Source: Nemertoderma westbladi (Eukaryota; Animalia; Xenacoelomorpha). Taken from it: a stretch of 42,943 bases of DNA. The translations under genes and the position numbers were made by a program. Position 1 is the stretch's first letter; every line of letters starts with the position of its first letter. The stretch spans positions 1 through 42,943 of the forward strand of contig JAUCBJ010002541.1 of the NCBI GenBank assembly GCA_032718475.1, written 5' to 3'. The notes beneath the pieces are model-generated. The model did no database searches, had not been told where the DNA came from, and saw only the letters and a program-made list of their open reading frames with translations. Shown piece by piece: positions 820 to 36,415 of the stretch.

Positions 820-1094
820 TGCTACTATAATTGGCCTGCTGCATTGAAACTGCATATTGAGATGCTATGCCAGCTTAACAAAAATATTTTGTATTTAGTA
901 TGCAGTCAACAATTGGCAAGCCCAATGCAGCATGCATTAAGAATGATATGCAGGCTTATCATCAAAGTTGTACCACCACAACTCCCTATCCCTCAAAACT
1001 TTCGCGAGATTATCCGCATCTTCAAGACCAGTGTCCTTTTGGAGGCATCTCACGAAAGTCATGGGCTGTCCACCATTATTTCCTCTATGGACCT
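820..1094 (-). mobile_element. Old, diverged 3' fragment of an RTE-like LINE (left half, split by the LTR element)
   Basis: Reverse complement aligns by eye with the 3' end of the RTE copy at about 37730-37927 (e.g. ccgcatcttcaagaccagtgtcc, aaagtcatgggctgtccacca); the match resumes after 12991. Confidence 0.8.
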
Positions 1095-2819
1095 TGTTGC
1101 CATTATCCCAACACCAGGGGGGAAAAACGCCGATGCTGGAGACGTGACTTTACAGACCACCGAGCCCCGGCCAGTCACCGGATATTGATTGTGGAGAAGG
1201 AATGTTTTCTGAGATGCAAGTTTGCGGTTGATAAAAAGCTGCATTAGTTGGATATACTCTTTAATGTAACTTCCTATAGTTGAAACCTGTTCAACATCAT
1301 TGAAACCTGAAACCTGATTAAGAATAATTTTGGGCTTCCCCAAATCAATATACACCAAATATTCACAATAATTATACACGATAATATAAATCCCTACGGT
1401 ATATTATTTAATTACCCACTGTTCGCTTCAGATTTTAGCCTACCTAATGTTCCCCAGATTTTCCCTCGGTCCTAGTCTTAGTGCCGTAGTGTCGGTGTCG
1501 GTCGACCCTGTCGCGTGTCCATTCCACCCCTCACGAACCCCGAAGGGTTCGATCATTGAGAACCAGAACGGCTTGGCTAGGGGTCCGTCGGTTCATCGCA
1601 GAAACCCAACCACCTAGGCTTTCCGAGTCCCTTTCAGGCTCGTAGTCGCTTCGGCAGCCGAGAAACTGCTCCGAACAGTCGGTAGGCCAGTAGAGTCTAG
1701 TCCTTTGTCTTTCGACCCCGTCGCGTGTCCGTTCCACCCCTCACGAACCCCGAAGGGAACGATCATCGAGAACCAGTACGGCTTGGCTAAGGGGTCTGTC
1801 GTCGGTTCCCGTCGCAGATCCCGGTACAAGCAGTCAGCGTTCCGAGTTCTTTTCAGTCTCGTAATAGCTGCCGTTGACCAGAGACCGCTAAGGGCAGTCC
1901 TCGTCAAACCCATCCTGTGGCCAGCCCTTTCGCATGTCCGTCCCACCCCTCGCGAACCCCGAAGGGATCGGTCATCGAGAACCAGTACGGCTTAGCTCAG
2001 GGGGCAGTCGTTAGTTGGCCACCCGTTCGCGTGTCCGCTCCACCCCTCACGAACCCCGAAGGGTTCGATCATCGAGAACCAGAATGGCTTGGCTACTAAG
2101 GGGCCGTCGTTTCCCGTCGCAAATCCCTGACACAAGCAGTCAGCGTTCCGAGTTCTTTTCAGTCTCGTAATAACTGCCGTTGACCAGAGACCGCTAAGGG
2201 CAGTCCTCGTCAAACCCGTCCTGTGGCCAGTCCTTTCGCATGTCCGTCCCACCCCTCGCGAACCCCGAAGGGATCGGTCATCGAGAACCAGTACGGCTTA
2301 GCTCAGGGGGCAGTCGTTAGTTGGCCACCCGTTCGCGTGTCCGCTCCACCCCTCACGAACCCCGAAGGGTTCGATCATCGAGAACCAGAACGGCTTGGCT
2401 ACTAAGGGGCCGTCGTTTCCCGTCGCAGATCCCTGACACAAGCAGTCAGCGTTCCGAGTTCTTTTCAGTCTCGTAATAACTGCTGTTGGCCAGGGACCGC
2501 TAAGGGCAGTCCTTGTCCTTTAGGCCTGGCGCATTACCAAATCCACCCCTACAGGCAGCAGGAAGTTGGCCAGGGCCTAATAGTACTCAGGCTAACCTGA
2601 ATACTGCTTGCATTTTCCATCCCCCCCTGGCCCTTATAACTATGAAATTATTCCCGTACCCTGTAAGTTCCCCCAAAGTTCGCCCATAAATCGCCCCCAG
2701 TTTATTGAATGTGCCCAAAACCCATGGTCCCGCACCCAGTAGTAATATCGGAATAATCAATTTTAATAAAATACAAAAATATTCAACTCGCGTTATGGAA
2801 AGTTGAAATACCGCGAACA
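1095..2819 (-). repeat. 3' LTR (1725 bp)
   Basis: Starts tgttgcc and ends ccgcgaaca; matches 11264..12986 except about 10 substitutions and one 2-bp indel; preceded on the minus strand by the PPT. Confidence 0.96.
1503..2520 (-). ncRNA. Tandem array of structured RNA motifs in LTR U3: 6 K-turn/UUCG hairpins and 4 loop-E/GAAA hairpins, partly in a 306-bp higher-order repeat
   Basis: Motif B cores at about 1524, 1734, 1943, 2040, 2249 and 2346 read on the minus strand UUCUC-GAU-GA-Y-CGAACCC-UUCG-GGGUUCG-Y-GA-GGGG. Motif A at 1621, 1837, 2143 and 2449 reads UA-CGAG-nCU-GAAA-nGnA-CUCG-GAA, mostly inside long stems. The repeat is seen directly; RNA function is inferred from tetraloops and covariation. 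Confidence 0.7.
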
Positions 2820-2828
2820 GTCCCCCCC
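2820..2828 (-). other. Polypurine tract (PPT)
   Basis: Minus strand reads GGGGGGGAC directly before the TGTT start of the 3' LTR. Confidence 0.8.
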
Positions 2829-3211
2829 AATGACCTTCGTGAAGTCTGTCGGTCGATTGAGTTTGCGTAGGTCATTCCCAATATAAAAAACCCAAATTTA
2901 ATATTGCATAGTTTTAATTAATTTGGCCTAGAGTTTGTATAAAAATAAATGTTCGATAAATGTTCCTGGAATATCCCGATCCACTATTTCTTTCTCTGAT
3001 ACGCCTTTCGTCTCTTCGCCCGTCGACTCTCATCGATCGCTATAGCTGGTAGAGGAGCGTCCACATCCATCGTGAGTAGCGCTTCGGCTTGTCTCCTGGC
3101 GGCTCTTCCTTTCGATGGCATAGGGATCATGTCGGTTCGTCTTTCCAACTCAGACTTGCGTGCCTCTAGGAACCACTCTCCGTCACCGAACTCCTCTTTA
3201 TACGAGTATAA

Positions 3212-5584
3212 TCATCTAATGACTTCAAATGGACCGAATAATCCGGCGCTCAGTAGCAGATCCACGTAATGGAAAGGTAGCGTGGCCGACGTGTGGAGGC
3301 GTTCCGGGAAGGAGAAATACCCGCACGCCATCTCCTGCGCGATATTCCGAGCGTTTCTCCGAACCTTGGTCTTTAAGTGGCTGTTTGCGTATGTTTCAAA
3401 CATGACCATATTTCCCATAGTGGTTACGTCCTTGGTTGGACATTTGATATAGCAGCGGGGGCTAGAGGAATGTCCACGGAAACCGCACGTGGTGCAGAGG
3501 TTATAAAGGATCGGACAGACGGAAACGTCGTGGCCCGATGTCGCGCAGTATGGGCAATAGAGTATCCCGAGGAGCTGGAGGCATGAATCGGTAACCCGAT
3601 TCCTTCTGCCGCGTGGGCACTGCTCCGAACCACAGTCGCCGCATACCTCCAACTGCATCTCTCGACCAGGAAATATTGGAATCGGGACGCCGATGTGATA
3701 CTCGAGTCGTCGGTCGCTCTTCGGAATATTCGCGGTGGTCGGTAGCCCGCGGAATGCTAGGCTTTTGCGTAGTAGGTTCTCGCTCCGATAACCTTCTTTG
3801 TGTCCCGCTGGTCTCAATTCGGACGACCATTTCTGGCGGTGGATCCATTCAGTTTGCTCGGCGTACCAACGGGTTAGTCGCATAGGGTCCTGAGGAACGG
3901 CGGGTGTAGTAGCCACCGCTGGTCGGCGAAGGGGTGCCGGGGTTTTAGACGGAGGGATACCGAGGAGATCGTCGGGTGTCGGCGCATCGCTGGGGCCCTC
4001 CTCGACCAGTATCGCTGAGCGGGTCCGTTGGTGGCTGGTACTCGGAATCTCCGACGACCAATCTTCGCCACCCGGGAAAGGATACGGGGATAACCGTTGG
4101 CATATGTCGCCGAAGTCGCTCAATGCAGCTGTAGTGGCTACCTCCCTCGCGGGGCTACCGGAGCCGCGTGGGGTGTAAACGCCTGCTCTCTTCATCGGTT
4201 CGGCCGAGGCAACCCGTTTGGCGGCCGGTCCATACGCGGCCTCCGGCTCGAGTTGTCGCTTTGGGGTGGAGAGTAGAACACCCTCGTTTAGCCATATCTC
4301 TTCCCCTTCCGAAGAGATCAGAGGCTCCTCCGCACCGAGAAGTTCGGTAATTGTAGGGATGTCGTAAGGCCCGCTCTCGTCCCAGGAATCGATAACGGCG
4401 AGCGTTTTAGTCTCTCCCGGTGCGATGTTCTCGACCGCTTTGAACGCGTGGTGTATGACCTCGTTCCAGTCGTAGTCGACAAAGGAAAGCGGGATCGCCG
4501 TAATAAGGTTATCGAGAGTTTTACAGATAAACTTAGCGACGGTGTAGCATTCCATAACGACGTAAACGTAGTTCCGTCGATCGGGATTCTCCCACCTTTG
4601 GTGTATCGTCCATTTCCGATCAACGTCCTTCCATCGACCCTCTCGCTCGCTCTTTATTTCTAATCCCGGGTATCCACCATATATTTTATTATAGTCCCGG
4701 AATTTCTGGGGTTTGAAGTCGATACCGCCGTTTAGCACAGCGAGGTAGCCGATCCCGGATTTCGTCGGTCTCACCTCTTGGAATCCTCGCATGAACTCGG
4801 CGAATCGTAACCAGGCTAGTAGCGTTTGAGTGTCGATGCAATGGCTAAGGGCGTTGAGGTCGTCTCGTCGGTTTCTTCCTGCAGGGGCGTTCGCGTAGTC
4901 GTTCCGGACGTCCGCCTTGATATCTGACCCGATTTTAATGACGTCGAAGTCGAAGAGGATCTTTTGGATTTCCGGAGGCAGCAACCAGATCGCTCCGGCT
5001 GCCTGCACTTCCTGTCTGGGTGTCGGGAATATTCGGCACACCAGTACCAAACCGTCCAGGGTTCCGAGGACGACGACTAAGGATCGACCGTATTCTTTCT
5101 CCCCGTACTTTTCCTGGTAGTCGTCTCGGTTCTGGATAATCGATACGCGTTCCTCTCGAAGCGTCGCCGTACACTCCGACAGGTTTCCCCAGTGGGCGAG
5201 GTACGTACTCTTGTCGTCGACGAAACTTTGACATCTCGCCAACGTAATCGCTTTCGAGGTGGGCATCGCGTTTCCCTCGTTGTCGTAGATCAAACATCGG
5301 GATCTGTAGACGCTCTGCCGGAACGTTTCCCAAAACGACGAATCGTCCCCTCCGGTTGCCTTTGCGTTCCGAGTTCTTTTCAGTCTCGTACTAGCATCGG
5401 CTAACCGGAGGGCTCGTAGATTCTTAGAATCCGGTCCCTCTCGCCCGGTGAATTTAATGACTCGCACGTTCTCATTTAGCAGGGTGCTCCAATTTGTATC
5501 AAAGTCAGGGGATCCGGGTTGCGAATATTCCAGTAGATCTATCGTGCTACGTAATTCGCCGATAATTTGGCGATTTGGGTCCAT
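3212..5584 (-). CDS. 790-aa accessory ORF: N-terminal DEDDy (WRN/EXD/Mut-7/Egalitarian-like) 3'-5' exonuclease-fold domain, Pro-rich linker, C-terminal Cys/His Zn-knuckle cluster
   Basis: Uninterrupted ORF, same sense as gag. Exo I-like LIYD101NE103G; LPPEIQKILFDFDVIKIGSDIKAD225 (WRN-type LPxxLxxLLxxxxIxKVGxxIxxD); CIDTQ; SGIGYLA; Exo III-like W..P....Y341VVME345CY. C-terminal CGDC, CPYCATSGHDVSVC, CTTCGFRGHSSSPRC. The ORF is near certain; the domain call is by eye. Confidence 0.75.
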   Translation of the reverse strand: MDPNRQIIGELRSTIDLLEYSQPGSPDFDTNWSTLLNENVRVIKFTGREGPDSKNLRALRLADASTRLKRTRNAKATGGDDSSFWETFRQSVYRSRCLIYDNEGNAMPTSKAITLARCQSFVDDKSTYLAHWGNLSECTATLREERVSIIQNRDDYQEKYGEKEYGRSLVVVLGTLDGLVLVCRIFPTPRQEVQAAGAIWLLPPEIQKILFDFDVIKIGSDIKADVRNDYANAPAGRNRRDDLNALSHCIDTQTLLAWLRFAEFMRGFQEVRPTKSGIGYLAVLNGGIDFKPQKFRDYNKIYGGYPGLEIKSEREGRWKDVDRKWTIHQRWENPDRRNYVYVVMECYTVAKFICKTLDNLITAIPLSFVDYDWNEVIHHAFKAVENIAPGETKTLAVIDSWDESGPYDIPTITELLGAEEPLISSEGEEIWLNEGVLLSTPKRQLEPEAAYGPAAKRVASAEPMKRAGVYTPRGSGSPAREVATTAALSDFGDICQRLSPYPFPGGEDWSSEIPSTSHQRTRSAILVEEGPSDAPTPDDLLGIPPSKTPAPLRRPAVATTPAVPQDPMRLTRWYAEQTEWIHRQKWSSELRPAGHKEGYRSENLLRKSLAFRGLPTTANIPKSDRRLEYHIGVPIPIFPGREMQLEVCGDCGSEQCPRGRRNRVTDSCLQLLGILYCPYCATSGHDVSVCPILYNLCTTCGFRGHSSSPRCYIKCPTKDVTTMGNMVMFETYANSHLKTKVRRNARNIAQEMACGYFSFPERLHTSATLPFHYVDLLLSAGLFGPFEVIR

Positions 5585-6154
5585 ATTTACGATTATATCC
5601 GTTACAAATTAGATCAGTTAATTATAAGTCCAGAAAGTCTGAAACTATAGCGATAGCAGAATAATTCAGTTTTTTTTATTTAATTCAGTTTATTAAATAA
5701 TATTGCTATATAGACATCTATCATCTTATTGCTAATACTTTCAGCATTTACAGTTACTATAGCTATACATTAATATCCAACCAGTTTTTTATGACTTTTT
5801 TGTCCTTTTCTTTTTTCCAATTCTTTTCTTTAGACTTTTTTTTACCTTTTTTTTTGTCTTTTTTCATTTCATTATTATTTCATCTCATTTCATTTATTTC
5901 CACATATATTTCAACACATTTAGTTCCACCATTTATTTCATATTTATTTATTTCCACATCATCATTGGGTTTATAGCCCCCCGGCTATCATCATTTGTTA
6001 TAAGCGCAGCACCAGGGTGCGCATCATTATATTTTCATCAGCATACGCGTCATCATTCAGGTTTATAGTAGAGTTGTCTGATCCTTTTCATCGTTTCCAA
6101 CTATATTCAATCATTTTCTTTGGTTAATCTTTGTCGTGGAAGGGGTGTTACTCG

Positions 6155-6556
6155 GCAATCTGGGATCTACAGCTGGACTCGTTACACCGCCTACGCCCCA
6201 AACTGCGCACGTAACGTACAATGAAGACGCTGGGAGTGAAGTCACGTGGATGCACCATGGACCCACCAGAATAACACTCCCAACAACATAAAGCTCAGTC
6301 GACGAAGTCATGTGGGATGGGATTACGCAACATTCTGGGATCTACAGCTGGACTCGTTACACCGCCTACGCCCCAAAATCCACGCAACGGTCCCACCAGA
6401 ATAACGCGACTGAGACACAAAACCCTCTATCGTCGAAGTCATGTGGATGCACCATGGACCCACCAGAATAACGGGATAGAAGGGGAGTTGCGCGGCAATC
6501 CGGGATCTACAGCTGGACTCGTTACACCGCCTATGCCCCGAACTGCGCACGCAACG
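6155..6556 (-). repeat. Intergenic repeats: three copies of a ~60-nt pseudoknot-forming unit and two to three copies of a 38-nt bulged hairpin
   Basis: gggatctacagctggactcgttacaccgccta(c/t)gcccc lies within 6155-6216, 6332-6389 and 6495-6556; gaagtca(c/t)gtggatgcaccatggacccaccagaataac at 6238-6275 and 6435-6472, with a split copy at about 6304-6405. Confidence 0.85.
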
Positions 6557-6834
6557 GACAACATAACATACTGCAATGAATACAATGAATTCCACTTCAA
6601 ATCTTTTCCATTTCCAATAATCCAATATCGTAGGTCCTGATGACCAAAATCAGGGTAAACAAAACATAAACGACCCTGCATCAGTCGAAACATCTGCAGG
6701 GTGACGCTGGACTCCACATAACACACGAGGAAACACAAATACCATGGCGTGGTTACAGTTGGTTTAAGGGGGGTCCATAATTCGTTGTCGATAAATCACA
6801 GTTAAAAAGAGTTTGTCAACATGATGAGAAGGGT

Positions 6835-7310
6835 TTAAACGTATTTGTAATTGTCACCAATGTCCGCAGCAGGATCTTGAGTAGGGAACTTATCACCTCT
6901 CGTAGAGTCACCGCTATCATTGCCTTCAAGAAGGCACAGCCTCTGGATAGGGCGTTGGTAGTGGCCCGATTTCGTTCGTATCGTCACAGTCCTCGCAAGT
7001 CCGTCTTTGCTTGGGTGTATGGTCACGACCCGCGCCACAGGCCAGTGAACGCGGTCTTTGAGATCTTCTTTAACTAGTACCATGTCGCCAACTGCGACGT
7101 TCCGGTAGGTGTTGTTCCATTTCCTACTGGTCCGGAGGGTTATGAGGTACTCCTGGGCCCAGATTCTCCACCAATGCGCTGCCAACGCTTGGGCCTTCTT
7201 CCAGTTTGTATGTCTCGCGATCTCGTTGGGATCCGGGAACATGGTCTCCGGGAGAACGTGGGTTTTGGGTCTCCCCAGTAGGTGGTTAGGAGTGAGGGAC
7301 TCAACTGAGG
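6835..7310 (-). pseudogene. Bel/Pao integrase C-terminal remnant (DUF5641-like)
   Basis: LTPNHLLGRP...WKKAQALAAHWWRIWAQEYL...VGDMVLVKE...WPVARV...SKDGLARTVTIRT....YQRPIQRLCLLE; no DDE core upstream; out of frame with gag-PR. Confidence 0.9.
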
Positions 7311-7327
7311 CGTTCGCCATCCGGGTA

Positions 7328-10300
7328 TTACGGCAGATTAGTCCGTGCTCTCCCATTAATGGTGTCAATGTTATCAACATCATTATTATCATCAACAACC
7401 TTATTAGCCACCAAAGCATGGGCACGCGCCAATGTCGGGTCTTTGAACGTGGCCTGAACAAAAATGTTGGTACAATATTGATCTTCCTCGGACGGATTCT
7501 CGTCCTTCTCGGCAAACTCTCGGGTCTCCACATTAAAGCATCCGGTCATCTCCCGCTGGGTTCTCTCGGTTTCGAGAAATAAATCCTCATTGAGGTCTGT
7601 AGCTGAGCAATATCCCACGGATGTTACATTTTCTTTATTCTGACATTTAGGAAGATATGTATAGGTGTCAGTAGTTTCTTCCTTGATGCCGCAGAGGGTC
7701 CATCCCATTATGGTTCGTTCAGCGTAAAAGCCGTCATCTTTCTTTATGGATCGGGCGACATCTCCGGTAGGTATGTGTAATTCCGGTGTATCAAGTCCGA
7801 TCAGTAGGGTGATGCGGTTTACGTCCAACTGCGGACACCTCAGATCTACATCGTCTCGGTCCAATTGTATGAGGGGGGTGTACTCGGCTGATTGTCGGAA
7901 CCGCACTCGGAGGTCTGTGTGTACCAAGGCGTTCTTGATGGTTAGCTTGACCGTCTCGTAGCCCTTCATTACTCCTTCCATTTGGAGTTGCACCTCCCCA
8001 GACTCTACCTCTCTGTTATCGGTGATGGTTTGTATGGGCCGTTTACAAGGTTCATATTCTAGGCCGAGTTGCTCGAGGAAATCCCGGTCGATGATGGTTC
8101 CGTCAGACCCGTTATCAAGGAACGCGAGCGTCGTCAGGGATTTGCCGACTCCCTGAATCCTTACCGGGATTACCTTTGCGAAGACCATGTAGCGGCGATT
8201 TATAAGATTAATCGTGGCTGAAATGTTGGTTACTTGTGGTTTATCGGTGGAGATTTTAAACGGATTGGTTTCTCTCCGTTGGGTAATCCGGGTTCCTTTG
8301 GAAACGTGGTTCGTTTCTCCTCTTCGCTTGGCTTCGATCCGAAAGGGGAGGGTAGTGAAGTCGAAGTTCGCGGGGATGTGGAGGAGCGTGTGATGACGTA
8401 GGTCGTTACAAACTGCACAACACGACCTTTGGTCGCAATCCCGAACGTAGTGACCTGTTCCAAGACACCGGAAGCATCCTCGGTGTTTCATCATCGCCTC
8501 GAAGCGTGGGACAAGTTCAGCAAACTGGAACTTTCCGCAGAATTCCAACTTATGTTTCTCTCCGCAGAAGAGACATATAGGGGAGGCTGTGGTGCCTTCC
8601 CTTTCGGGTGCCCAATTCGCTAGGTAGCATGCCCATTCTTCTGCTAAGGTCGGTTCCTCGTAATCCTCGTCATCCGAGTCCTCAGCCATACTGATGGCCA
8701 TCGCACTCACAGGAGTAGGGTGGAATCTTGGGTTTGGAGTGGGTGCCCTGCTCTGATAATTGCTCTCCATTGCGTCCAACTTGGCGAGACTCTGTTTCGA
8801 GAACATCGAGTCATTCATGGCTTCGGAGATATCGTCCAGGAATGCCGACATTTCGAGGAAGCTGGGATCTCGATCTGGATGTCTGTGCCGGAGATCTACG
8901 CATTTATAGGCCCACTTACTTTGCAGCCATCCGGGGAACTTCCGGGCAATCTGTCGGAGGTTTAGAATGTTGTTCACCTGGTCCTCCTTATTTAAGGGTT
9001 TCAGAGTGTAGTAGGCATCCTTCATGGAATCTGAAAATTCCTGGAGGTTCTGTGGGTCCCCTAGTGATCCCGCGTCTTGTATCAGTTTCTCTAGAGTTTT
9101 ATTAATTATAGTCCCGGTATTTCCGTATCTTTTGTCTAGAGTTTTCCATGCGTCGTAGTATGCTTCATGAGAACCTCCCTCAAAACAAGCGATGATTCGG
9201 CGTGGTTTGTCACCCAGGTATTGCGATAAATATACCAGTTTCTGTGCATCGGCTATGTCCGTTGATCCAATCTGCGCAAAGAACCGTTTCTTGAATCTGA
9301 GGTAATCGACGGGATCTCCTTCGAAGGTGCGGATCTCCATCTTGGGCATGGAGAGGCGGTTTTCCAATGCCCGGATAATGCCGATGTTGTCCGAACTGGA
9401 GTGGTTTGGAGGGTTATAGTTATTGGCACTCTCTCCCATACTCGATGGATCAATGGTAGGTGGAGTTTTAATGATGACGCGACTACGGGTTTGTGGTGTG
9501 GATGTAAACGGGTTGTTGGATCGAGGAGTGGCGTCCCGTTCCGAGTCCCTTTCAGGCTCGTACTTGGGAACACTCGCTGTCGTGGTGTTGGATGGGAAAT
9601 AAGGTTCCTCATTCTTTAGCGTAGCCGGTGGTGGATGGAACACCGGTGCTTGTGCCGATAGCGTAGACTGTTTGGTAGGCGGGATCTCGGGTTTCGGAAG
9701 TTTCGCCGCTGTCGGTATGAATGACTTTTCTAATTCCGGTACCGGGATTGGTTCATATTCCTGATCTATATCCCTTTCCCAGTCCTCGTAGAGTTGAATA
9801 TCTCGTTCTATAAGTGCGGCTTCGTATTCCGCGAGTTTTACAATATCCGCATTCTTTTTGTGGATGAGAATTGCTTGGGCCTCGGCGTGTTGTTTACGCA
9901 TTTCTGCTTCCCATTTACGTTGTTCGATCTCTCGTCCGCGTTGTTCGGCCTCCTGTTTGCGTTGTTCGGCCTCTCGTTTGCGTTGTTCGGCCTGCCGTTC
10001 GTCCTCTCGTCTATGTTGTTCGGCCTCTCGTTTATGTTGTTCTGCCTGCCGTTCGTCCTCTCGTTTGCGTTGTTCGGCCTGCCGTTCGTCCTCTCGTCTA
10101 TGTTGTTCGGCCTCTCGTCTATGTTGTTCGGCCTCCTGTTCGCGTTGTTCGGCCTGTCGTTCGGCTGCTTGTTTGGCCTCTCGCTTTTGTGTTTCGGCGG
10201 CTAATACATCTTGCTCGGCTTGCAGTTGAATATACTCATCTTCCATCCGAGCTTTGAGGGCTAATGCCTTCCGTTCTCGCAGTTGGTCTCGGAGTGGCGG

Positions 10301-10825
10301 CGCCCCTTGAGAACTGCGCGCTGAGCCGGATATCTCGCTCCTAGCGCTGGAGTGCTGATTTCTAGCGGACCCCGTTCTCTTTCGATGTACTGCTGTCCTG
10401 ATGCTGGAGGATCGTACTGATTCCGCGTCTGTTCTTTCAGCCCTCTTGTAATACTGTTCTTCATAGCCTCTCACAAGGCTGAGGGTCCTCCGGTGTTGTT
10501 TGCGGAACCCATCTAGATGTACAACGTGTTCTTCCAACTTGGGGTAGTTTTCCTGATCGGTGGGGGGAACGAGCTCTTGGTACGCCTGTATCATTCTTTC
10601 GTACCGCTGTAGGATATTTCGGATACTTTGAAGCTGAGTTTGTACCTCATTGAGGGGGGTTTTGACTCCCTTGAGTTGTTTCTCCATCCGTTGATACGCT
10701 CGGGTTACTCCGCCTTTGAGAGCCCCTAGCCGACGGGTCATGTTCTTGACGTTCGGTACCTCGTCGGCTTCCGAGTCTGTGTGGTGATCCATCTCGTCGA
10801 TATCGGATACGTTATTTGTCGTCAT
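7328..10825 (-). CDS. gag: Bel/Pao Gag-protease polyprotein (1165 aa), truncated before RT
   Basis: Coiled-coil N-terminus; DUF1759-like capsid region (FEGDPVDYLRFKKRF...KLVYLSQYL...AWKTLDKRYG); knuckles CLFCGEKHKLEFC, CFRCLGTGHYVRDC, CAVCNDLRHHTLLH; protease AFLDNGSDGTII...LLIGLD...TIMGWTLCG. Confidence 0.95.
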   Translation of the reverse strand: MTTNNVSDIDEMDHHTDSEADEVPNVKNMTRRLGALKGGVTRAYQRMEKQLKGVKTPLNEVQTQLQSIRNILQRYERMIQAYQELVPPTDQENYPKLEEHVVHLDGFRKQHRRTLSLVRGYEEQYYKRAERTDAESVRSSSIRTAVHRKRTGSARNQHSSARSEISGSARSSQGAPPLRDQLRERKALALKARMEDEYIQLQAEQDVLAAETQKREAKQAAERQAEQREQEAEQHRREAEQHRREDERQAEQRKREDERQAEQHKREAEQHRREDERQAEQRKREAEQRKQEAEQRGREIEQRKWEAEMRKQHAEAQAILIHKKNADIVKLAEYEAALIERDIQLYEDWERDIDQEYEPIPVPELEKSFIPTAAKLPKPEIPPTKQSTLSAQAPVFHPPPATLKNEEPYFPSNTTTASVPKYEPERDSERDATPRSNNPFTSTPQTRSRVIIKTPPTIDPSSMGESANNYNPPNHSSSDNIGIIRALENRLSMPKMEIRTFEGDPVDYLRFKKRFFAQIGSTDIADAQKLVYLSQYLGDKPRRIIACFEGGSHEAYYDAWKTLDKRYGNTGTIINKTLEKLIQDAGSLGDPQNLQEFSDSMKDAYYTLKPLNKEDQVNNILNLRQIARKFPGWLQSKWAYKCVDLRHRHPDRDPSFLEMSAFLDDISEAMNDSMFSKQSLAKLDAMESNYQSRAPTPNPRFHPTPVSAMAISMAEDSDDEDYEEPTLAEEWACYLANWAPEREGTTASPICLFCGEKHKLEFCGKFQFAELVPRFEAMMKHRGCFRCLGTGHYVRDCDQRSCCAVCNDLRHHTLLHIPANFDFTTLPFRIEAKRRGETNHVSKGTRITQRRETNPFKISTDKPQVTNISATINLINRRYMVFAKVIPVRIQGVGKSLTTLAFLDNGSDGTIIDRDFLEQLGLEYEPCKRPIQTITDNREVESGEVQLQMEGVMKGYETVKLTIKNALVHTDLRVRFRQSAEYTPLIQLDRDDVDLRCPQLDVNRITLLIGLDTPELHIPTGDVARSIKKDDGFYAERTIMGWTLCGIKEETTDTYTYLPKCQNKENVTSVGYCSATDLNEDLFLETERTQREMTGCFNVETREFAEKDENPSEEDQYCTNIFVQATFKDPTLARAHALVANKVVDDNNDVDNIDTINGRARTNLP
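9935..10165 (-). repeat. Coding tandem repeat in gag (REAEQHR/REDERQAEQRK units) extending the coiled coil
   Basis: Repeated tgttcggcct...tcgt units of 21 and 33 bp, all in frame. Confidence 0.9.
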
Positions 10826-11013
10826 TGTAACGCCTCGTCAATAGCTAGATACGCGATGTCATAAAACAGTTCCTCGTAGGTATTGTACTCAGCTTGGACC
10901 ACCCGAACGGTAATCCTGAATCGTCCGACGTTCGTTCCTTGCACTTCAACTTCGACGTGCCAGATTCCTGGCTCAACTTGGATTATATCAATGGGTGTGA
11001 TCGATACTTCCAT
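10822..11013 (-). CDS. 63-aa upstream ORF whose stop overlaps the gag start (ATGA)
   Basis: True ATG in strong context (GGAATGG); its TGA overlaps the gag ATG; the sequence alternates hydrophobic residues like beta strands and ends in an acidic helix-like segment. No homolog recognised. Confidence 0.45.
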   Translation of the reverse strand: MEVSITPIDIIQVEPGIWHVEVEVQGTNVGRFRITVRVVQAEYNTYEELFYDIAYLAIDEALQ

Positions 11014-11205
11014 TCCCTGTTAACAACTCTCCAAATATGTGATCTGCCGACTACGAGTTGGTTAGATCGAGTTTGTTGATTAATTAAACCACGACTTCGT
11101 CTCAACTCAAATACCAGAGTTTCCTCGTAGTGGGTGCTGGCAAGCACGTAGAGAGTTTTGAAGAGTATTGAAGGATTCTGAACTTCCACCAGTTGAAGTT
11201 GACCG

Positions 11206-11263
11206 TAATTATTCTTAATTTTGACACCCTGTCAAAATTAACCGCATTAATTATTCTTAATTT
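11206..11263 (-). other. PBS position: no tRNA-type TGG; 18-bp direct repeat, 12-bp-stem hairpin and a 13-mer complementary to the LTR
   Basis: taattattcttaattttg at 11206-11223 and 11248-11265; ttaattttgaca-ccc-tgtcaaaattaa at 11215-11241; 11249-11261 is the reverse complement of LTR 11486-11498. Confidence 0.55.
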
Positions 11264-12986
11264 TGTTGCCGTTATCCCAACACCAGGGGGGAAAAACGCC
11301 GATGCTGGAGACGTGACTTTACAGACCACCGAGCCCCGGCCAGTCACCGGATATTGATTGTGGAGAAGGAATGTTTTCTGAGATGCAAGTTTGCAGTTGA
11401 TAAAAAGCTGCATTAGTTGGATATACTCTTTAATGTAACTTCCTATAGTTGAAACCTGTTCAACATCATTGAAACCTGAAACCTGATTAAGAATAATTTT
11501 GGGCTTCCCCAAATCAATATACACCAAATATTCACAATAATTATACACGATAATATAAATCCCTACGGTATATTATTTAATTACCCACTGTTCGCTTCAG
11601 ATTTTAGCCTACCTAATGTTCCCCAGATTTTCCCTCGGTCCTAGTCTTAGTGCCGTAGTGTCGGTGTCGGTCGACCCTGTCGCGTGTCCGTTCCACCCCT
11701 CACGAACCCCGAAGGGTTCGATCATCGAGAACCAGAACGGCTTGGCTAGGGGTCCGTCGGTTCATCGCAGAAACCCAACCACCTAGGCTTTCCGAGTCCC
11801 TTTCAGGCTCGTAGTCGCTTCGGCAGCCGAGAAACTGCTCCGAACAGTCGGTAGGCCAGTAGAGTCTAGTCCTTTGTCTTTCGACCCCGTCGCGTGTCCG
11901 TTCCACCCCTCACGAACCCCGAAGGGAACGATCATCGAGAACCAGTACGGCTTGGCTAAGGGGTCTGTCGTCGGTTCCCGTCGCAGATCCCGGTACAAGC
12001 AGTCAGCGTTCCGAGTTCTTTTCAGTCTCGTAATAGCTGCTGTTGACCAGAGACCGCTAAGGGCAGTCCTCGTCAAACCCGTCCTGTGGCCAGCCCTTTC
12101 GCATGTCCGTCCCACCCCTCGCGAACCCCGAAGGGATCGGTCATCGAGAACCAGTACGGCTTAGCTCAGGGGGCAGTCGTTAGTTGGCCACCCGTTCGCG
12201 TGTCCGCTCCACCCCTCACGAACCCCGAAGGGTTCGATCATCGAGAACCAGAACGGCTTGGCTACTAAGGGGCCGTCGTTTCCCGTCGCAAATCCCTGAC
12301 ACAAGCAGTCAGCGTTCCGAGTTCTTTTCAGTCTCGTAATAACTGCCGTTGACCAGAGACCGCTAAGGGCAGTCCTCGTCAAACCCGTCCTGTGGCCAGC
12401 CCTTTCGCATGTCCGTCCCACCCCTCGCGAACCCCGAAGGGATCGGTCATCGAGAACCAGTACGGCTTAGCTCAGGGGGAAGTCGTTAGTTGGCCACCCG
12501 TTCGCGTGTCCGCTCCACCCCTCACGAACCCCGAAGGGTTCGATCATCGAGAACAAGAACGGCTTGGCTACTAAGGGGCCGTCGTTTCCCGTCGCAGATC
12601 CCTGACACAAGCAGTCAGTTCCGAGTTCTTTTCAGTCTCGTAATAACTGCTGTTGGCCAGGGACCGCTAAGGGCAGTCCTTGTCCTTTAGGCCTGGCGCA
12701 TTACCAAATCCACCCCTACAGGCAGCAGGAAGTTGGCCAGGGCCTAATAGTACTCAGGCTAACCTGAATACTGCTTGCATTTTCCATCCCCCCCTGGCCC
12801 TTATAACTATGAAATTATTCCCGTACCCTGTAAGTTCCCCCAAAGTTCGCCCATAAATCGCCCCCAGTTTATTGAATGTGCCCAAAACCCATGGTCCCGC
12901 ACCCAGTAGTAATATCGGAATAATCAATTTTAATAAAATACAAAAATATTCAACTCGCGTTATGGAAAGTTGAAATACCGCGAACA
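11264..12986 (-). repeat. 5' LTR (1723 bp), containing the same motif array (about 11672..12688)
   Basis: Direct repeat of 1095..2819; followed on the plus strand by TSD GACCT. Confidence 0.96.
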
Positions 12987-13060
12987 GACCTGCCAAAGAA
13001 CAAGAATGTGCACAGGATGGTCCTCACGGTGAAAACAATGACCGGCAAAGCGGAGGCTGA
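12987..13060 (-). mobile_element. Right half of the old RTE-like fragment split by the LTR element
   Basis: gccaaagaacaagaatgtgcacaggatggtcctcacggtgaaaacaatgaccggcaaagcggaggc aligns to the reverse complement of about 37665-37732. Confidence 0.8.
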
Positions 13061-13868
13061 TCAGGAGACTACAAATACAAAGAACTGATAAATCATAAAA
13101 CACAGATGAAGTCATATTAGAGACCTGTCACCCAGTTAGACCATGTGTTGCCTAAAAGATATGGGAAAAGAAGTCATGCTGAAACATTCGAACCTTGCTC
13201 CCACTGATTCTTACTGCAGTGCATAAAAATAGTGATTAACATTAGTAACACGACATCAATCCTTAGAAACGTAATGTGGGGCCACCAACGAAGTGAGCGA
13301 AGCCTTAGCATGTGGGTGCCATTAACGACTTGTCTGTCATCGTCATCTGTCGTCGTCATCGTTGTAAATTTTTGATCGCTAATAACTCGGTGATGAAATT
13401 AAATGAAACTTGGCACGTATGTAGTCCGTCAAAAGTTGAGAAAGAAACTGAATATTGATAAAAAAAAAACGAACGAACGCAACGAGGCAAATGAAGGAGA
13501 CGAGTATTGTGTTGAAGACTTCTGACTAACAACAGAGAACTCAGTAATGGGGCCACTATATGCTAAGGCTCGGTTTGCTCACTTTGTGCTGCGCGAAGAC
13601 CCCACGAACGTGTATTATGATGAATGGGCTTTGTATGTGCATTGATTGATTAATTACAAGAGATTGGGAACTATTAGCGAGTTATAATAAATTTATTAAT
13701 TTTATTTAATATTGTCTACACCATATTTGGAATATAAGTGGAATTGATTGGTTGGTTGGTTGATTGAACTGGTTGTGAAAATGAGCAGCTGCCTAATTTT
13801 AAAATTGACTTTCCTTTCAAATTTAAATAGGGCCTTGGCTATATAACATAATTTGCAAAATTTAATTA

Positions 13869-14128
13869 CTACTAGGATCGGCATGCTACATTGCAGCTGC
13901 ATTTTTAAGAATGATGTGCCGGCTTGTTGACAAAATTGCGTCGCCACAACTCTATCACCCAAGACATTTGCTAGATCATCCGCATCTTCAAGGCCAGTGT
14001 CCTTTAAGATGCGTCTCAATAAAGTCAAGGGCTGTCCACCATGCTTATTCATTCCGGCATGAGGCTGCTAAAGTACAAGATTATGCATTGGCTGGTCCTC
14101 ACGGCGAAAGCAATGTCCTGCAAAGCGG
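13869..14128 (-). mobile_element. 5'-truncated RTE-like LINE copy (about 260 bp)
   Basis: Close reverse-complement match to 37670-37927; flanked by aaaatttaatta at 13857-13868 and 14129-14140 (TSD). Confidence 0.9.
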
Positions 14129-15824
14129 AAAATTTAATTAATAAATCCTTGAGAGTCAAATATTATAAGTATCAAATTTGTTTTTGTTTTCTTTAGAGCC
14201 AATGTAATATCATAAGTATACATCGGTATATGAGAGCTGAGTTTAAGGATGACTCTGGTTCCAAGATCACCTGCTATGAAGCTCAAGAAACTCAAGGTTG
14301 CGAAGGAAAATGTACATCTTTCAAGGGGCCCATATTCAAGTATAAAAACATGGATATGTCACTCCGACAGGTTAGGCTTGCTTTTAATGGGTGGTATGCT
14401 TGAAGTATGAAATTGTAGAAAATTGTAAATTATTTTTATGATTAAAAACACTTAGCAATTTTATATTAAGTTTCATATTCACTAACATTGCACATTCGCA
14501 TAAATGAATATTCTCACTTGAGTCCAGGTGAAACGCGGTGCTACATTATTTATATAGAATACAATAGAGTCAATATTTAGGTAATTATTTTTCAAACTCG
14601 TTTTTTGTTATTTACACTGCGTTATTTTCACTTTGTAAACACCCAGGCCTACGATAAATGATGCTGATATCCGGACAATTATTCTGAAATAATTATATAA
14701 TTTATAGGAATGTTATTATTGTAAAGAAATCCAAACGAAACCAAAGAGGTTAATGTTCACTAACTGTCTTGACATGGATAACAACGCAGTAACAGGACCA
14801 TTTTCAACCGTCATTCATGAAGCATCAAAATGTGGTTGTAAACATTGCATTGGGAAGTAAACGCTTTACTGAATATTTTACTTACTTTTTCAAGTTGCAC
14901 ATATCTGAACTAAACTAAATACAGTAACTACAATTGTACACCTAAGCTTACACTAATATTAGAAGTTATTATAAGAAGGTAATAATATATTAAACAATTT
15001 TCGCTCCCTTTTGTTTCTGATATTACCGAGAGTGATGTAATAAAGTTAGGCATGTTTCAATTTTCGACCTCTCAAAATATCGCCCACTTTTGAAAGCTAT
15101 CCCGCTCCACACTACATTCTTCGCCAAATAGTAGGACACAGAGGGAGGTATGGAAGTTATGCTGGATTTGCAACCTCTTACGGCACTCATACATACACCT
15201 GATCCAACCGGTTGTTTTCACTAACTACGCTCCCACTCAAATGTGTAGGTGATTAATTATATAGTTCTTGGAACGAGCCGAAAATAATGCCTATATTATA
15301 TCCTGTAAAATAAATAATTATTATTCACTTTAGCCTTTAATCACACAAGCAATCAAATATACAACAAACAAGTTGGTGAAATGTTTGTATGCAGTAAGTC
15401 AGTCAGTTAGTTAGGCGTACCCTTATTTCTACTATGTTTAAATCATGTGTTCAGCAATAAGAGCCATTATGTGTGCAATGTGAGTTTATTAAAAACTTCA
15501 AATTAGCTTGTAAAATATTAATGACACATAATTTGTTATTTAATATTTCATCAATTAGTATACATTAACGTTAGTGTCTTTGATTGACCTCCCACTCATT
15601 CGGATCTGTGTCCATCAACTTATCAATCTAATGTATATATATATATACATTCATACATACACCATAATATGTACTTCTCGTGAGGTGGTGGTTGTTCCCT
15701 ATAATGGTATTTAATGGTCAATAATAATCCTACTACACTTACTACTAGGTCGAGCGAGCACAGTCATCATATTTTATTATGATGTCCATATTTTATATAT
15801 AAACCATTTCTTGGAGCAACTCCT

Positions 15825-16096: not shown

Positions 16097-16813
16097 CAGA
16101 AAGACCAAAATTTTGACAGTTAACTTTGAAAGTCCTCAGCAAGTCTCTGATCGGAGGAACATAAGCTCAAAATATGGTATGCTTGAGCATGTGGATGACT
16201 TCTGTTACCTGGGATCATGGATCCGGAAGTCAGGTGAGGACCTTCGAATACGTAATAATAGGGAAAGGCATGGGCAGCCTTGAATAGGCTTTCCAGGATT
16301 TGGAAGTCACCGGTAATTTATCCGACACTTAAGGTCCGATTATTTAGAGCAGCAGTAGTTCCAGTACTCCTCTATGGGAGTCCATGCTGGGCTCTAACTG
16401 CTGAGGACACCAAATCTCTGGATGGCACATTCACAAGAATGCTACGCCGGGTTCATTGTGTCAAGTACAATGCACACATCTCCAACCAGACACTATATAA
16501 CATTGGAGGTGTCTCATTGGTTCCCCCAAGCTTGACACTAGAACAAAATCGCCTCCGCTTTGCAGGACATTGCTTTCGCCGTGAGGACCAGCCAGTGCAT
16601 AATCTTGTACTTTGGCAGCCTCATGGAGTGAATAAGCATGGTGGACAGCCCATGACTTTCTTGAGACGCATCTTAAAGGACACTGGCCTTGAAGATGCTG
16701 ATGATCTAGCAAATGTCATGGGTGATAGGGAGTTGTGGCGGTGCAATTTTGTCGATAAGCCGGCACAGCATTCTTAAAAATGCAGCTGTAATGCAGCATG
16801 CCGATCCTAGTAG
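16097..16813 (+). mobile_element. 5'-truncated RTE-like LINE copy (RT C-terminal region, frameshifted)
   Basis: Near-identical to about 37219-37927; (TAG)n tail; TSD tagttcgttagt at 16085-16096 and 16814-16825. Confidence 0.92.
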
Positions 16814-17090: not shown

Positions 17091-18364
17091 CCCTATTACC
17101 ACTGGGGGGGGGGGGGGGGGGGGGGGGTGGGGCGAATCGGCCCCTTCCTAGTTTTTAGTTGCTGTAACTATACAACCACATTACGTACCGGCCCAACTTT
17201 TATTGAGAATTAGCCAAATTTAATGCCGCATCTTTTGCAAAAAACGACGTTGCAATTGGATTTCTACTTTTCGATGTGGGTGCCACCTCAAAATTTGGTC
17301 TCCAGCACCAAATTTTTTGAAATTTTCGAATTTTACAAAGTCATTCGTGATTTAGTAATTATTTATGTTTGGGCTATTTTTATTTATTTTTATTGGTTTG
17401 GATCACTCTAATGTTCTATACAAGTATGTAAGTGTAGTGGTACGTCATTTTTGGAGAACCAAAATTAGGGTGTGGCACTGCTTTAAAATTTCAAAATTAC
17501 TTTATTCGGAAAATTTACTAAAGTTTTGATTTCGAAGCATTTTTATTGGCTTTCTGGAGCGCTGAATCGATTGAAAGTGATATAGAAGCCTGAAGACTTA
17601 GTGGTTCGCCATTTTTGGTGCACCAAAATTAGGGCGTGGCACTTCAAATTTTGAAAAATACGAGATTCGGAAAATACACTAAAGTTTTGATTTGCAAAGC
17701 ATTTTTATAGGTTTTCTGGAGCGCTGAATCGATTGAAAGTAATATAGAAGCCTGAAGACTTAGTGGTTCGCCATTTTTGGCGCACCAAAATTAGGGCGTG
17801 GCACTTCAAATTTTGAAAAATTAGAGATTCGGAAAATACACTAAAGTTTGGATTTCAAAGCATTTTTATAGGTTTTCTGGAGCGCTGAATCGATTGAAAG
17901 TAATATAGCAGCCTGAAAACTTAGTGGCTCGCCATTTTTGGTGCACCAAAAATAGGGCGTGGCACGTCAAATTTTGAAAAATGCGAGATTCGGAAAATAC
18001 ACTAAAGTTTTGATTTCAAAGCATTTTTATAGGTTTTCTGGAGCGCTGAATCGATTGAAAGTAATATAGAAGCCACAAATCCTTGGTGTACGTAATTTTC
18101 GGTGCACCAAAATTAGGGTGTGGCACTTCAAATTTTCAAAATTACTTTATTCGGAAAAAACACTAAAGTTTTGATTTCAAAAAATGGCTAACCTCTAAGT
18201 CTTCAGGCTTCTATATTACTTTCAATCGATTCAGCGGTCTAGAAAACATATATAAATATGCGTTAAAATTTTAATTTTGGTTTATTTTCCGAATCTCGTA
18301 TTTTTCAAAATTTGAAGTTTCCCCCCCCCCCCCTGATGGTCAAAACATCCCAGTGGTAATAGGG
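17091..18364. mobile_element. piggyBac-like non-autonomous DNA transposon
   Basis: TTAA on both sides (17087-17090, 18365-18368); perfect 16-bp TIRs CCCTATTACCACTGGG / CCCAGTGGTAATAGGG; no transposase ORF. Confidence 0.9.
17440..18318. repeat. About 161-bp tandem repeat (about 4.5 copies) plus one inverted partial copy inside the piggyBac-like element
   Basis: ggg(c/t)gtggcac recurs at about 17468, 17632, 17794, 17955 and 18115; 18180-18318 is the reverse complement of the unit. Confidence 0.9.
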
Positions 18365-22800: not shown

Positions 22801-24301
22801 TATTCTGTGACTCAGAATCGCAGTCGTAAGTGCGCACTTAATGAAACATCTGTTCAATGTCACAAGCAAAAACTACCCTGTGCTGCCGAAATTGAAACAA
22901 TACCTCTATAATGGAGTTGTAAAAATTGGGTCCCTCCATTAATTCTGAATTGAGACTCATTCATTTATATTGTGCCGCCACGTTATTTACCACCCTCAAC
23001 TTACCAGGTTTGTTGGGGTTCCAGACGGAATGTGTTGGCACATAGTACTAACGTGGACCATCAGGTAACAATTTTTCAGCTTCTGTAAGTCGTCGGGCGT
23101 ACCCTTTCACTTCATATTCATCAAATGTGGCTAGATATTTTTTATGATCATCCGGAATTTTAAGTCATTTACGCTTGATCCATCTCAGCCAAGTCAAAGC
23201 TAATTGTTTAATATTTATTAGGGGTTTATCTTTGTTTAACCACAACATTCCTATGTAGTAATGACCGTCTATGAACTTTGTTGTCTCTCTTAGAATTTTC
23301 TCAGATTGTATGTCTTGTACAGATTTGTTTTGCAGTCGGGTAGGACAATAATATGCTTCAGAATCCCAAAATTCCATCAGTAAGTCATGGATAACTTCAT
23401 CTGATGGGCTAATATCATTCCACAAAGGGCAACATTCTATATGATTTACTGATACTTGAGCTTTCGAATATTTTAAGTCATCAGGATTTTCGTCAGTAAC
23501 GTCATCAGTTATGTCATCATATACATCATTCAAACGCCACCTGCAAGGTTGTGGTACACATTCCATCTGCTCAACAAAGTCATAATTTTCACTTTCAGCC
23601 TTACACGTATGGACCTCCAAATCTGCGTGACTGGCGTCATGGTTACTGCTGACATCACTTGCTACTTGTACTGACGGCAAACGCCGTCCATCACATAATG
23701 GGCCTACCAAAGTCCATCCAAATGGCGTTTTAATTGCGTGGGGGTTATTAATCTCATCATGGGAAGTGGGTCCCCATACGGATTTTAGAACTTTGTGAGC
23801 CTGGGGGTTATTCATTCCAATTATCATTGAAATACTATCAATATCTACAGTAGGATAAGTAATGTTTACATTCTTAAGGTAAGTCAGCTGGTCTAATGAC
23901 CACCTACTAGGTCTAACGTAATTTACGTGAAGATTAGGTATTAACATTACATCTCTTAGGGATAATGTGAAGTGACAGTCCTTTTGAATAGATCTAACAA
24001 CACAAGCTCGCTGTTCCACTGTCTTGCCTTCACGTGTTAGTATGGTGTTAAGTGATACATCTACAGGTTCTGTATCCATGTCTAGTAGCTCACCTACAGT
24101 CTTGTCTATTAGCGTCCCTGTGGAACCATCATCTAACAAAGCAAACGTAGTTATTAGGAGTCCCGTTTCAGTATTCTTAACTGAGAGTAGTACTACACCA
24201 AGGAATACAGCCTTTATGTCTAACCCCTTTGGATTCAAATCATGATTTAATGCCATTGCAGCTACGCTTTTGTATGCGGGAGAGAACTGACTAAACTTCA
24301 T
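19850..24301 (-). pseudogene. pol: Decayed Bel/Pao pol (protease-RT-RNase H-integrase) with many frameshifts and stops
   Basis: ALLDDGSTGTLI (protease); VHMFGKKDSPCAA...HFYVDN (RT); SIYDPLGL...HHFCDAS and ANRIEEI...WRHIPGTKNPADIASRG (RNase H region); HPIILP, CIFC, VGVDLFGP, YSDQG, HHGGVWERLI, LTPNHLL, RPIQKICLLE (integrase). Confidence 0.93.
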
Positions 24302-24319
24302 AGATGTAGTGTTAGCCGC

Positions 24320-36297: not shown

Positions 36298-36415
36298 ATT
36301 GAACACTTATCCGCATTCAACTATTTCTTACTATACACAATTCCGGGTGTAATCCAGGCTCCTTTACTAAGTGTTGCCAACAACAGTAAGCTGACATTGT
36401 AGTTAACTGTTCATT

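What the first reader, a model, noticed from the sequence alone, without database searches (positions are those of the whole stretch)
5348..5412. The same loop-E/sarcin-ricin-like hairpin apex sits in the LTR array and inside both protein-coding ORFs, on unrelated stems
The 27-mer at 5364-5390 (extra ORF) is identical to LTR 1837-1863, 2143-2169 and 2449-2475. The 24-mer at 9539-9562 (gag) is identical to LTR 1621-1644. The flanks differ in sequence yet pair: ccctccggtt/aaccggaggg (5348-5357/5403-5412), gagtg..tccc/ggga.cactc (9526-9575), AGCAGUUA/UGACUGCU in the LTR. The ORF copies read AGUA-CGAG...CUCG-GAAC, the AGUA/GAA bulged-G motif. The copy in the extra ORF equals the rRNA sarcin-ricin loop AGUACGAGAGGAAC with a 13-nt insert. 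The two coding copies encode different peptides (TRLKRTRN and YEPERDSE), so the constraint is at the nucleic-acid level. This suggests a recognition tag placed on every part of the element RNA.
Basis: partly seen in the sequence, partly recalled or inferred. Interest (0 to 1): 0.82.

Follow-up and report, generated by a model that had tools for sequence, protein, structure and literature searches.

The report
Repeated RNA hairpin tag in retrotransposon
A recently inserted Bel/Pao-type jumping gene carries the same 24-27-letter hairpin tip eight times in its terminal repeats and once inside each of two protein-coding genes on otherwise unrelated stems, which likely makes it a repeated protein-docking tag on the element's RNA, possibly read by the element's own extra nuclease-like protein.

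Summary
The window has a young Bel/Pao LTR retrotransposon (minus strand, 1095-12986; LTRs 99.3% identical; RT/RNase H absent) with gag-protease and an extra ORF encoding a DEDD-exonuclease-like domain plus a zinc cluster. One hairpin tip occurs 10 times (8 in LTRs, 1 in gag, 1 in the extra ORF; 0.01 expected). Outside the identical tract the coding copies differ, yet both rebuild a stem closing a 5x4 loop with the AGUA/GAA sarcin-ricin (loop E) pattern, which 2 of 2320 and 7 of 3445 ORF positions would give, real sites included. So the coding copies are probably selected RNA structures, not passive insertions. Corrections: LTR copies have a bulged U or C, not G; the match to the ribosomal sarcin-ricin loop is in letters, not predicted geometry; and there are only two copies outside the LTRs. 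The LTR array also holds a K-turn-like UUCG hairpin. No relative carrying the motif was found, so conservation across families is untested, and neither transcription nor any binding partner is shown. Best reading: a multivalent export/localisation/stability tag, kept identical by template switching. New variant of a known kind.

The parts
5348..5412 (-). Hairpin inside ORF3 (codons 58-79): 10-bp basal stem, two short stems, 5x4 AGUA/GAA loop, CGAG/CUCG stem, GAAA tetraloop
   Evidence: most stable 65-nt window of the internal region (-33.3 kcal/mol)
5364..5390 (-). 27-nt tract identical to LTR apex variant 1
9526..9575 (-). Hairpin inside gag (codons 417-434, low-complexity linker) with the same 5x4 AGUA/GAA loop; 24-nt tract 9539-9562 identical to LTR apex variant 2
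1621..1644 (-). LTR apex, variant 2 (bulged C); twin at 11790-11813
1840..1863 (-). LTR apex, variant 1 (bulged U); twin at 12009-12032
2146..2169 (-). LTR apex, variant 1; twin at 12315-12338
2452..2475 (-). LTR apex, variant 1; twin at 12619-12642 lacks 2 nt just below the loop
1490..2540 (-). GC-rich (59%) hairpin array in the 3' LTR: six ~97-nt K-turn-like/cUUCGg hairpins interleaved with four apex hairpins; twin at about 11660-12700
1095..2819 (-). 3' LTR (TG...CA); TATA-like at 2638-2634 and ATTAAA at 1412-1407 would put the array in the transcribed R region (inferred)
11264..12986 (-). 5' LTR; 10 substitutions and one 2-nt gap against the 3' LTR; 5-bp target duplication GACCT at 1090-1094 and 12987-12991
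2821..2828 (-). Polypurine tract
3212..5584 (-). ORF3, 790 aa: DEDD-exonuclease-like domain (about aa 140-385; ExoI acidic residues not evident) and C-terminal Cys/His cluster (aa 648-705)
7328..10825 (-). gag-protease ORF, 1165 aa (DUF1759, zinc knuckle, aspartyl protease): Bel/Pao type
6835..7545 (-). Integrase C-terminal remnant (DUF5641); RT, RNase H and most of integrase are absent from this copy

Best explanation
A young, pol-deficient Bel/Pao retrotransposon repeats one hairpin tip in its LTRs, gag and extra ORF, and this tip likely folds in the RNA as a loop E (sarcin-ricin-type) motif under a GAAA cap that would serve as a multivalent protein-docking tag for export, localisation or protection of the element's transcripts. 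Shown: the element anatomy, the 10 copies, two tip variants each shared by an LTR copy and a coding copy, and unrelated stems closing the same 5x4 loop. Inferred (about 0.75): the coding copies are under selection for RNA shape, placed in protein linkers that tolerate it. Inferred (about 0.6): reverse-transcriptase template switching between co-packaged copies keeps the tips letter-identical, and the shared tract stops at the loop because homology stops there. Inferred (about 0.5): the job is post-transcriptional licensing rather than selective packaging, because the tag would lie at both RNA ends and in ORF3 and so would mark genomic and subgenomic RNA alike.
For: 10 copies vs 0.01 expected, all on the sense strand. 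Different peptides and frames. ORF3 flanks pair at -26.8 kcal/mol, better than all 2218 other ORF3 windows (22-nt flanks); gag flanks are beaten by 14 of 3360 (15-nt) or 32 of 3346 (22-nt) windows. 'AG before the core' plus a 3-bp helix closing a 5x4 loop occurs at 2 of 2320 ORF3 and 7 of 3445 gag positions, real sites included. In 7 aligned copies 3 of 4 pairs of the helix under the loop change on both sides and 90.8% of cells pair. The A.A, U.A and A.G positions are invariant, while the bulged base (G/U/C) and lower pair (U.C, A.C, G.A) vary, the places where natural motifs vary (PMC8450098). The two tip variants differ by U-A to U.G and A.A to C-G, both compatible with the stem. GAAA and cUUCGg caps lie on the sense strand (4 vs 0 and 6 vs 1). 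Contigs of other samples span both coding hairpins, including ~84% and ~91% identical copies (records 19, 20, 22). ORF3 resembles DEDD nucleases by features (0.92 to PF01612 clusters) and weakly by fold (Nibbler Z 6.7, rmsd 4.4, 168 aligned; EXD1 5.1; Egalitarian 4.5).
Against: No relative carrying the motif was found: 0 matches in viral, metagenome and prokaryote collections and no convincing model hit in 10 of 10 distant loci (best 7.2 bits), so the flank statistics rest on two sites in one element and the structure was chosen by me from these same related sequences. With 15-nt flanks the ORF3 site is unremarkable (378 of 2232). LTR copies lack the bulged G, which PMC8450098 reports as ~5.5 kcal/mol destabilising for A or C. 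The 12619 copy has lost 2 nt under the loop. The K-turn-like units show no two-sided change (0 pairs) and ViennaRNA prefers a slipped register. ORF3 models are low confidence (mean pLDDT 42.5 and 56.1) with no Foldseek hit at E<=0.001. In Egalitarian the exonuclease-like domain binds RNA only together with LOTUS-like domains (PMC13186709 passages), which were not detected in ORF3.
Confidence: 0.5

Rival explanations
1. The hairpins are dispersed packaging or RNA-assembly signals read by the element's Gag zinc knuckles, or RNA-RNA contacts (GAAA loops docking into partners) that compact or dimerise the genome.
For: This copy keeps an open gag-protease while lacking RT, so efficient packaging matters; GNRA caps are common tertiary-contact loops (own knowledge); cis signals for Ty1 packaging and dimerisation are hairpins (search listing).
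Against: A tag in the inferred R region and in ORF3 would not separate genomic from subgenomic RNA; no self-complementary loop; no receptor was searched for.
Confidence: 0.22
2. The coding copies are neutral template-switch insertions of LTR sequence into tolerant linkers, and the stems are accidents or by-products of polymerase pausing at pre-existing hairpins.
For: Letter-perfect identity to specific LTR variants; tract lengths 27 and 24 nt are multiples of three; both sites lie outside conserved protein domains.
Against: Both coding copies have A-G just outside the shared tract and a helix in exactly the 5x4 register, a better motif than their LTR twins; two independent events share the same module borders.
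Confidence: 0.15
3. The tip was captured from, or mimics, the ribosomal sarcin-ricin loop or 5S loop E arm and binds translation factors or ribosomal-RNA-binding proteins.
For: The ORF3 copy matches the rat SRL letters on both sides of a 13-nt insert; LTR elements that captured 5S or tRNA sequence exist (PMC10886601 abstract).
Against: Predicted geometry differs from the SRL, where one C-G pair separates motif and GAGA loop; beyond the motif itself only GAG(A) is shared; no Rfam rRNA hit at E<=5.
Confidence: 0.08
4. It is a DNA-level site (enhancer or factor-binding site), the inverted flanks being incidental.
For: Identity is at sequence level; both strands fold equally well; LTR arrays often act as enhancers (own knowledge).
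Against: Non-canonical RNA motifs (AGUA/GAA, GAAA, cUUCGg, K-turn-like) read on the sense strand; a DNA site would not need new stems.
Confidence: 0.04
5. Assembly artefact joining LTR reads into the ORFs.
For: High-copy family with near-identical repeats.
Against: Both ORFs stay open through the tracts; contigs from another sample cross both sites with hundreds of flanking letters (records 19, 20, 22).
Confidence: 0.01

Closest known systems
Sarcin-ricin / loop E / bulged-G RNA motif (PMC8450098 section 14 and passages; PMC4227780 passages)
   Same: 5x4 internal loop, AGUA/GAA core, lower pair U.C or A.C, bulged base G with U/C variants.
   Different: A recurrent module, not the rRNA loop: six to seven predicted pairs and a GAAA cap above it instead of one pair and GAGA; repeated ten times in a retroelement.
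Retroviral and retrotransposon RNA transport elements (RRE, CTE, RTE, MusD element, MLV PTE; PMC4588558 abstract)
   Same: Structured cis elements on retroelement RNA; the MLV PTE overlaps coding sequence and is bipartite.
   Different: Known elements are single or bipartite regions; here one letter-identical tip is repeated across LTR, gag and an accessory ORF. No sequence or Rfam similarity; function untested.
DEDDy ORF3 of bdelloid Juno/Vesta LTR retrotransposons (PMC5408684 passages)
   Same: LTR element with an extra same-strand ORF of DEDD-exonuclease type after pol, with Cys/His residues.
   Different: The element here is Bel/Pao by Pfam; ExoI acidic residues are not evident; that paper has 0 occurrences of 'hairpin'.
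Egalitarian and its stem-loop localisation signals, including the I-factor signal (PMC13186709 passages)
   Same: An exonuclease-homology domain contacts RNA stem-loops without using its catalytic residues; two stem-loops are needed, so copy number matters.
   Different: Egl is a host protein using LOTUS-like domains and reads bent A-form helices, not loop E motifs; ORF3 similarity is weak (Z 4.5, rmsd 6.0, 155 aligned).
Cassandra / Ajax / Helenus TRIMs (PMC10886601 abstract)
   Same: Non-autonomous LTR elements with RNA-gene-like modules in their LTRs.
   Different: Those carry 5S or tRNA sequence as Pol III promoters; no 5S or tRNA match here.

Membership tests
Bel/Pao LTR retrotransposon | TG...CA LTRs, 5-bp target duplication, polypurine tract | tested here: met
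Bel/Pao LTR retrotransposon | Pao-type gag/protease and integrase C-terminal families (DUF1759, DUF5641; their tie to Bel/Pao is own knowledge) | tested here: met
   E 8.4e-15 and 4.9e-29
Bel/Pao LTR retrotransposon (autonomous) | RT and RNase H | tested here: not met
   no such Pfam hit, no room or motif between protease and integrase remnant: non-autonomous copy
Sarcin-ricin / loop E motif (coding copies) | 5x4 internal loop with AGUA/GAA and an allowed lower pair | tested here: met
   (sequence and predicted secondary structure only)
Sarcin-ricin / loop E motif | S-turn and base triple in 3D | not testable with these tools
   needs probing or structure
Ribosomal sarcin-ricin loop itself | one C-G pair between motif and a GAGA tetraloop | tested here: not met
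   no Rfam rRNA hit
K-turn (LTR UUCG hairpins) | C stem, 3-nt bulge, tandem G.A/A.G, NC stem | tested here: inconclusive
   pattern in 5 of 6 units per LTR but a slipped Watson-Crick register competes, no covariation, and the same scan gave 10 hits in 30.6 kb of unrelated loci
Retroelement RNA export/localisation element | orientation-dependent effect on export or localisation and a bound factor | not testable with these tools
   no assay; no RNA holder listed
DEDDy exonuclease (ORF3) | DnaQ-like fold | tested here: inconclusive
   all top matches are DEDD nucleases but Z <= 6.7 and E >= 0.008; feature score 0.92; no Pfam hit
DEDDy exonuclease (ORF3) | ExoI D-x-E catalytic residues | tested here: inconclusive
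   four of seven homologous rows have D-x-E; ORF3 reads IIQNRDD there in alignment A1 and the region aligns differently in A6
Cassandra/Ajax/Helenus TRIM | 5S- or tRNA-derived sequence in LTR, no coding capacity | tested here: not met

The most novel reading that the evidence does not exclude
A Bel/Pao retrotransposon runs its own Rev/RRE-like circuit: its extra ORF encodes a dead DEDD nuclease with a zinc cluster that reads loop E hairpins stamped on the LTRs, gag and its own message, licensing element RNA for export or germline transport, while template switching keeps reader sites synchronised.
Probability: 0.2. Interest if true: 0.85.

Novelty: new variant of a known kind. Interest (0 to 1): 0.58.

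Why it matters
Cis-acting RNA signals of Bel/Pao elements, and the role of DEDD-type extra ORFs in LTR elements (left open in PMC5408684), are poorly understood. A short, precisely bounded RNA module repeated in LTRs and inside two reading frames gives a direct handle: it can be probed, put in reporters and used as bait. It is also a clean case of concerted evolution of an RNA motif between coding and non-coding parts of one element.

Tried and rejected
No whole genome is held, so family-wide variation could not be computed from an assembly. Contig lay-out of 3200-9900 shows only 40 of 911 variant rows; none of the 40 falls in either hairpin, which is too few to count as evidence. Per-site variation at the hairpin therefore stays open. 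No RNA holder was listed; run X5 (RNA is a guess, organism B, depth about 3) is not evidence of expression. Rfam at E<=5 over 1000-13100: two chance hits. No tRNA gene in the window. Apex pattern: 0 matches in viral contigs, metagenome contigs, genome contigs; UUCG-hairpin pattern: 0 in viral contigs; these collections are mostly non-animal. Word-index protein searches found nothing; PDB sequence search nothing. The full HMMER search gave 8 distant proteins of 32-39% identity; 10 loci were fetched through three of them, of which 3 (L001, L002, L007) match ORF3 by tblastx; none shows an LTR pair, hairpin array or apex, but they are 1.1-5.2 kb fragments and very distant. The weak model hit at 3847-3931 (11.7 bits, E 0.35; sequence) lacks the core and was rejected. 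The second, decayed Pao-like element at 20428-26959 has no copy (best 7.5 bits). Earlier scan notes: nothing relevant. Ten literature searches (listings read, not all papers) showed no report of loop E or K-turn arrays in LTRs or of such a shared tip; the library lacks most subscription papers and Repbase, and no supplements were read.

Full report
Setting. The finding lies in one LTR retrotransposon on the minus strand, 1095-12986. Its LTRs (1095-2819 and 11264-12986) are 99.3% identical (10 substitutions and one 2-nt gap), end in TG...CA and are flanked by a GACCT duplication at 1090-1094 and 12987-12991 (read; my slices were off by one). A polypurine tract precedes the 3' LTR. The first ORF (1165 aa) carries DUF1759, a zinc knuckle and an aspartyl protease, and a second frame carries DUF5641, which I know as Bel/Pao gag and integrase-end families. 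RT, RNase H and most of integrase are absent, so this copy is non-autonomous. Thousands of contigs of varied identity lay on the internal region in two runs (7188 and 3643), so the family is abundant.

The observation. Every identity quoted is exact and maximal. Other LTR-to-internal matches reach 12-13 nt, as do matches to unrelated stretches. The core pattern occurs 10 times, all on the element's sense strand, against 0.01 by chance; a covariance model built from seven of these copies recovers these 10 and nothing else above 11.7 bits in the window and 10 loci. There are two tip variants: one in three copies per LTR and in ORF3, the other in one copy per LTR and in gag. Contigs of another sample cross both coding sites (records 19, 20, 22), which argues against an assembly artefact. 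Record 20, about 84% identical, aligns through the ORF3 hairpin and stops 10 nt beyond it with 126 letters left over, a weak hint that the hairpin is better kept than the sequence upstream.

What the tip is. In the minimum-energy folds of the ORF3, gag, 1621, 1840 and 2452 copies a 5x4 internal loop sits under a CGAG/CUCG stem and a GAAA cap; the 2146 copy, and the centroid of the 2452 copy, fold in another register. The 5x4 loop is the standard size of the sarcin-ricin (loop E) motif (PMC8450098 section 14). The positions for A.A, U.A and A.G are invariant in all copies; the bulged base is G in the two coding copies, U in 6 and C in 2 LTR copies; the lower pair is U.C, A.C or G.A. That paper lists UC and AC among natural lower pairs and bulged C, U or A as rarer and less stable variants. 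The letters match the rat sarcin-ricin loop with an insert (PMC4227780 passage), but there a single C-G pair separates motif and GAGA loop, whereas here GAG is paired; Rfam finds no rRNA. So it is the recurrent motif, not the ribosomal loop.

Are the coding copies selected? They encode different peptides in different frames and sit outside conserved domains. Their flanks are unrelated to the LTR flanks, yet pair. For ORF3 the 22-nt flanks give -26.8 kcal/mol, better than all 2218 other windows of that ORF, and the hairpin is the most stable 65-nt window of the internal region; with 15-nt flanks the site is ordinary (378 of 2232). For gag, 14 of 3360 and 32 of 3346 windows do as well, and the hairpin ranks only tenth among 50-nt windows. 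The joint feature 'AG just outside the shared tract and a 3-bp helix in the 5x4 register' is met at 2 of 2320 and 7 of 3445 positions, real sites included. Three of four pairs under the loop change on both sides across seven copies, with the caveat that the rows are related and I chose the structure. A passive insertion would not be expected to land twice with a better motif than its donor. The likeliest history is a set of functional hairpins whose shared tips are homogenised by template switching; tract lengths of 27 and 24 nt keep a neutral in-frame insertion possible.

The rest of the LTR array. Between the apex hairpins lie six ~97-nt units per LTR capped by cUUCGg. Five of six per LTR fit a K-turn pattern with U.U or C.C next to the G.A pairs; K-turns bind L7Ae-family proteins (PMC5579392 passages). 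Two units (A4, A6) also have AGUA/GAA at their base. This reading is unproven: a slipped Watson-Crick register competes, there is no covariation, and the scan gives 10 hits in 30.6 kb of unrelated loci. A TATA-like box at 2638 and ATTAAA at 1412 would place the array in the R region at both ends of the RNA; this is inferred only.

ORF3. It has no Pfam hit. Eight distant relatives share a C-terminal Cys/His cluster and most also an N-terminal domain. Language-model features point to 3'-5' exonucleases, and low-confidence models match Nibbler, EXD1, EXD2 and Egalitarian weakly but consistently. Several relatives keep the ExoI D-x-E; ORF3 seems not to. DEDDy extra ORFs are known from rotifer LTR elements, with function unresolved (PMC5408684 passages). 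Egalitarian's exonuclease-like domain contacts localisation stem-loops without its catalytic residues and two stem-loops are needed for transport (PMC13186709 passages). This is an analogy that makes ORF3 a candidate reader; nothing here shows binding.

Mechanism. I commit to a multivalent RNA tag for export, localisation or protection (0.5 overall), ahead of a Gag-read packaging or RNA-assembly signal (0.22), neutral insertion (0.15), ribosomal mimicry (0.08), a DNA site (0.04) and artefact (0.01). Retroelement transport elements, one of them within coding sequence, are the closest working analogues (PMC4588558 abstract).

Limits. No host genome was available; no relative with the motif was found; per-site variation across the family remains unmeasured; no RNA data. 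Ten literature searches (listings) showed no prior description, within an open-access library. Verdict: real, unusual and testable; a new variant of structured cis elements in retroelements; interest 0.58.

Noticed in passing
window 1490-2540 and about 11660-12700, minus strand: Six cUUCGg-capped ~97-nt hairpins per LTR with a K-turn-like bulge, two of them with a second AGUA/GAA loop at the base; arguably as striking as the finding itself.
   Followed up: partly
window 6139-6565, minus strand: Three diverged repeats between the integrase remnant and ORF3 each fold as long sense-strand hairpins with the same 10-nt loop (z -1.3 to -3.1; opposite strand about 0); one is the second most stable 65-nt window of the internal region. 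A second short repeat family is interleaved.
   Followed up: partly
window 11200-11263: No obvious tRNA primer-binding site directly after the 5' LTR; instead an AT-rich direct repeat and a ~13-bp hairpin.
   Followed up: no
window 7232-7679: Contig depth drops and loose ends cluster at 7298-7439, near the place where pol is missing, so other family members carry different sequence there.
   Followed up: no
window 923-1094 and 12987-14129; 16097-16777; 36407-37891: The element is inserted into a decayed LINE-like reverse-transcriptase remnant with relatives elsewhere in the window.
   Followed up: no
window 20428-26959, minus strand: A second, fragmented Pao-like element (weak integrase hit) without the hairpin.
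   Followed up: partly
L001 79-2025; L002 3-3488: Distant relatives of ORF3: L001 has two copies of the Cys/His cluster; L002 has an exonuclease-like region with D-x-E and the cluster at the end of a 1161-aa frame, pointing to a wider unnamed protein family.
   Followed up: partly
window 17435-18327; 28548-29681; 35794-36297: Unrelated tandem arrays of 161, 146 and 13 nt period.
   Followed up: no
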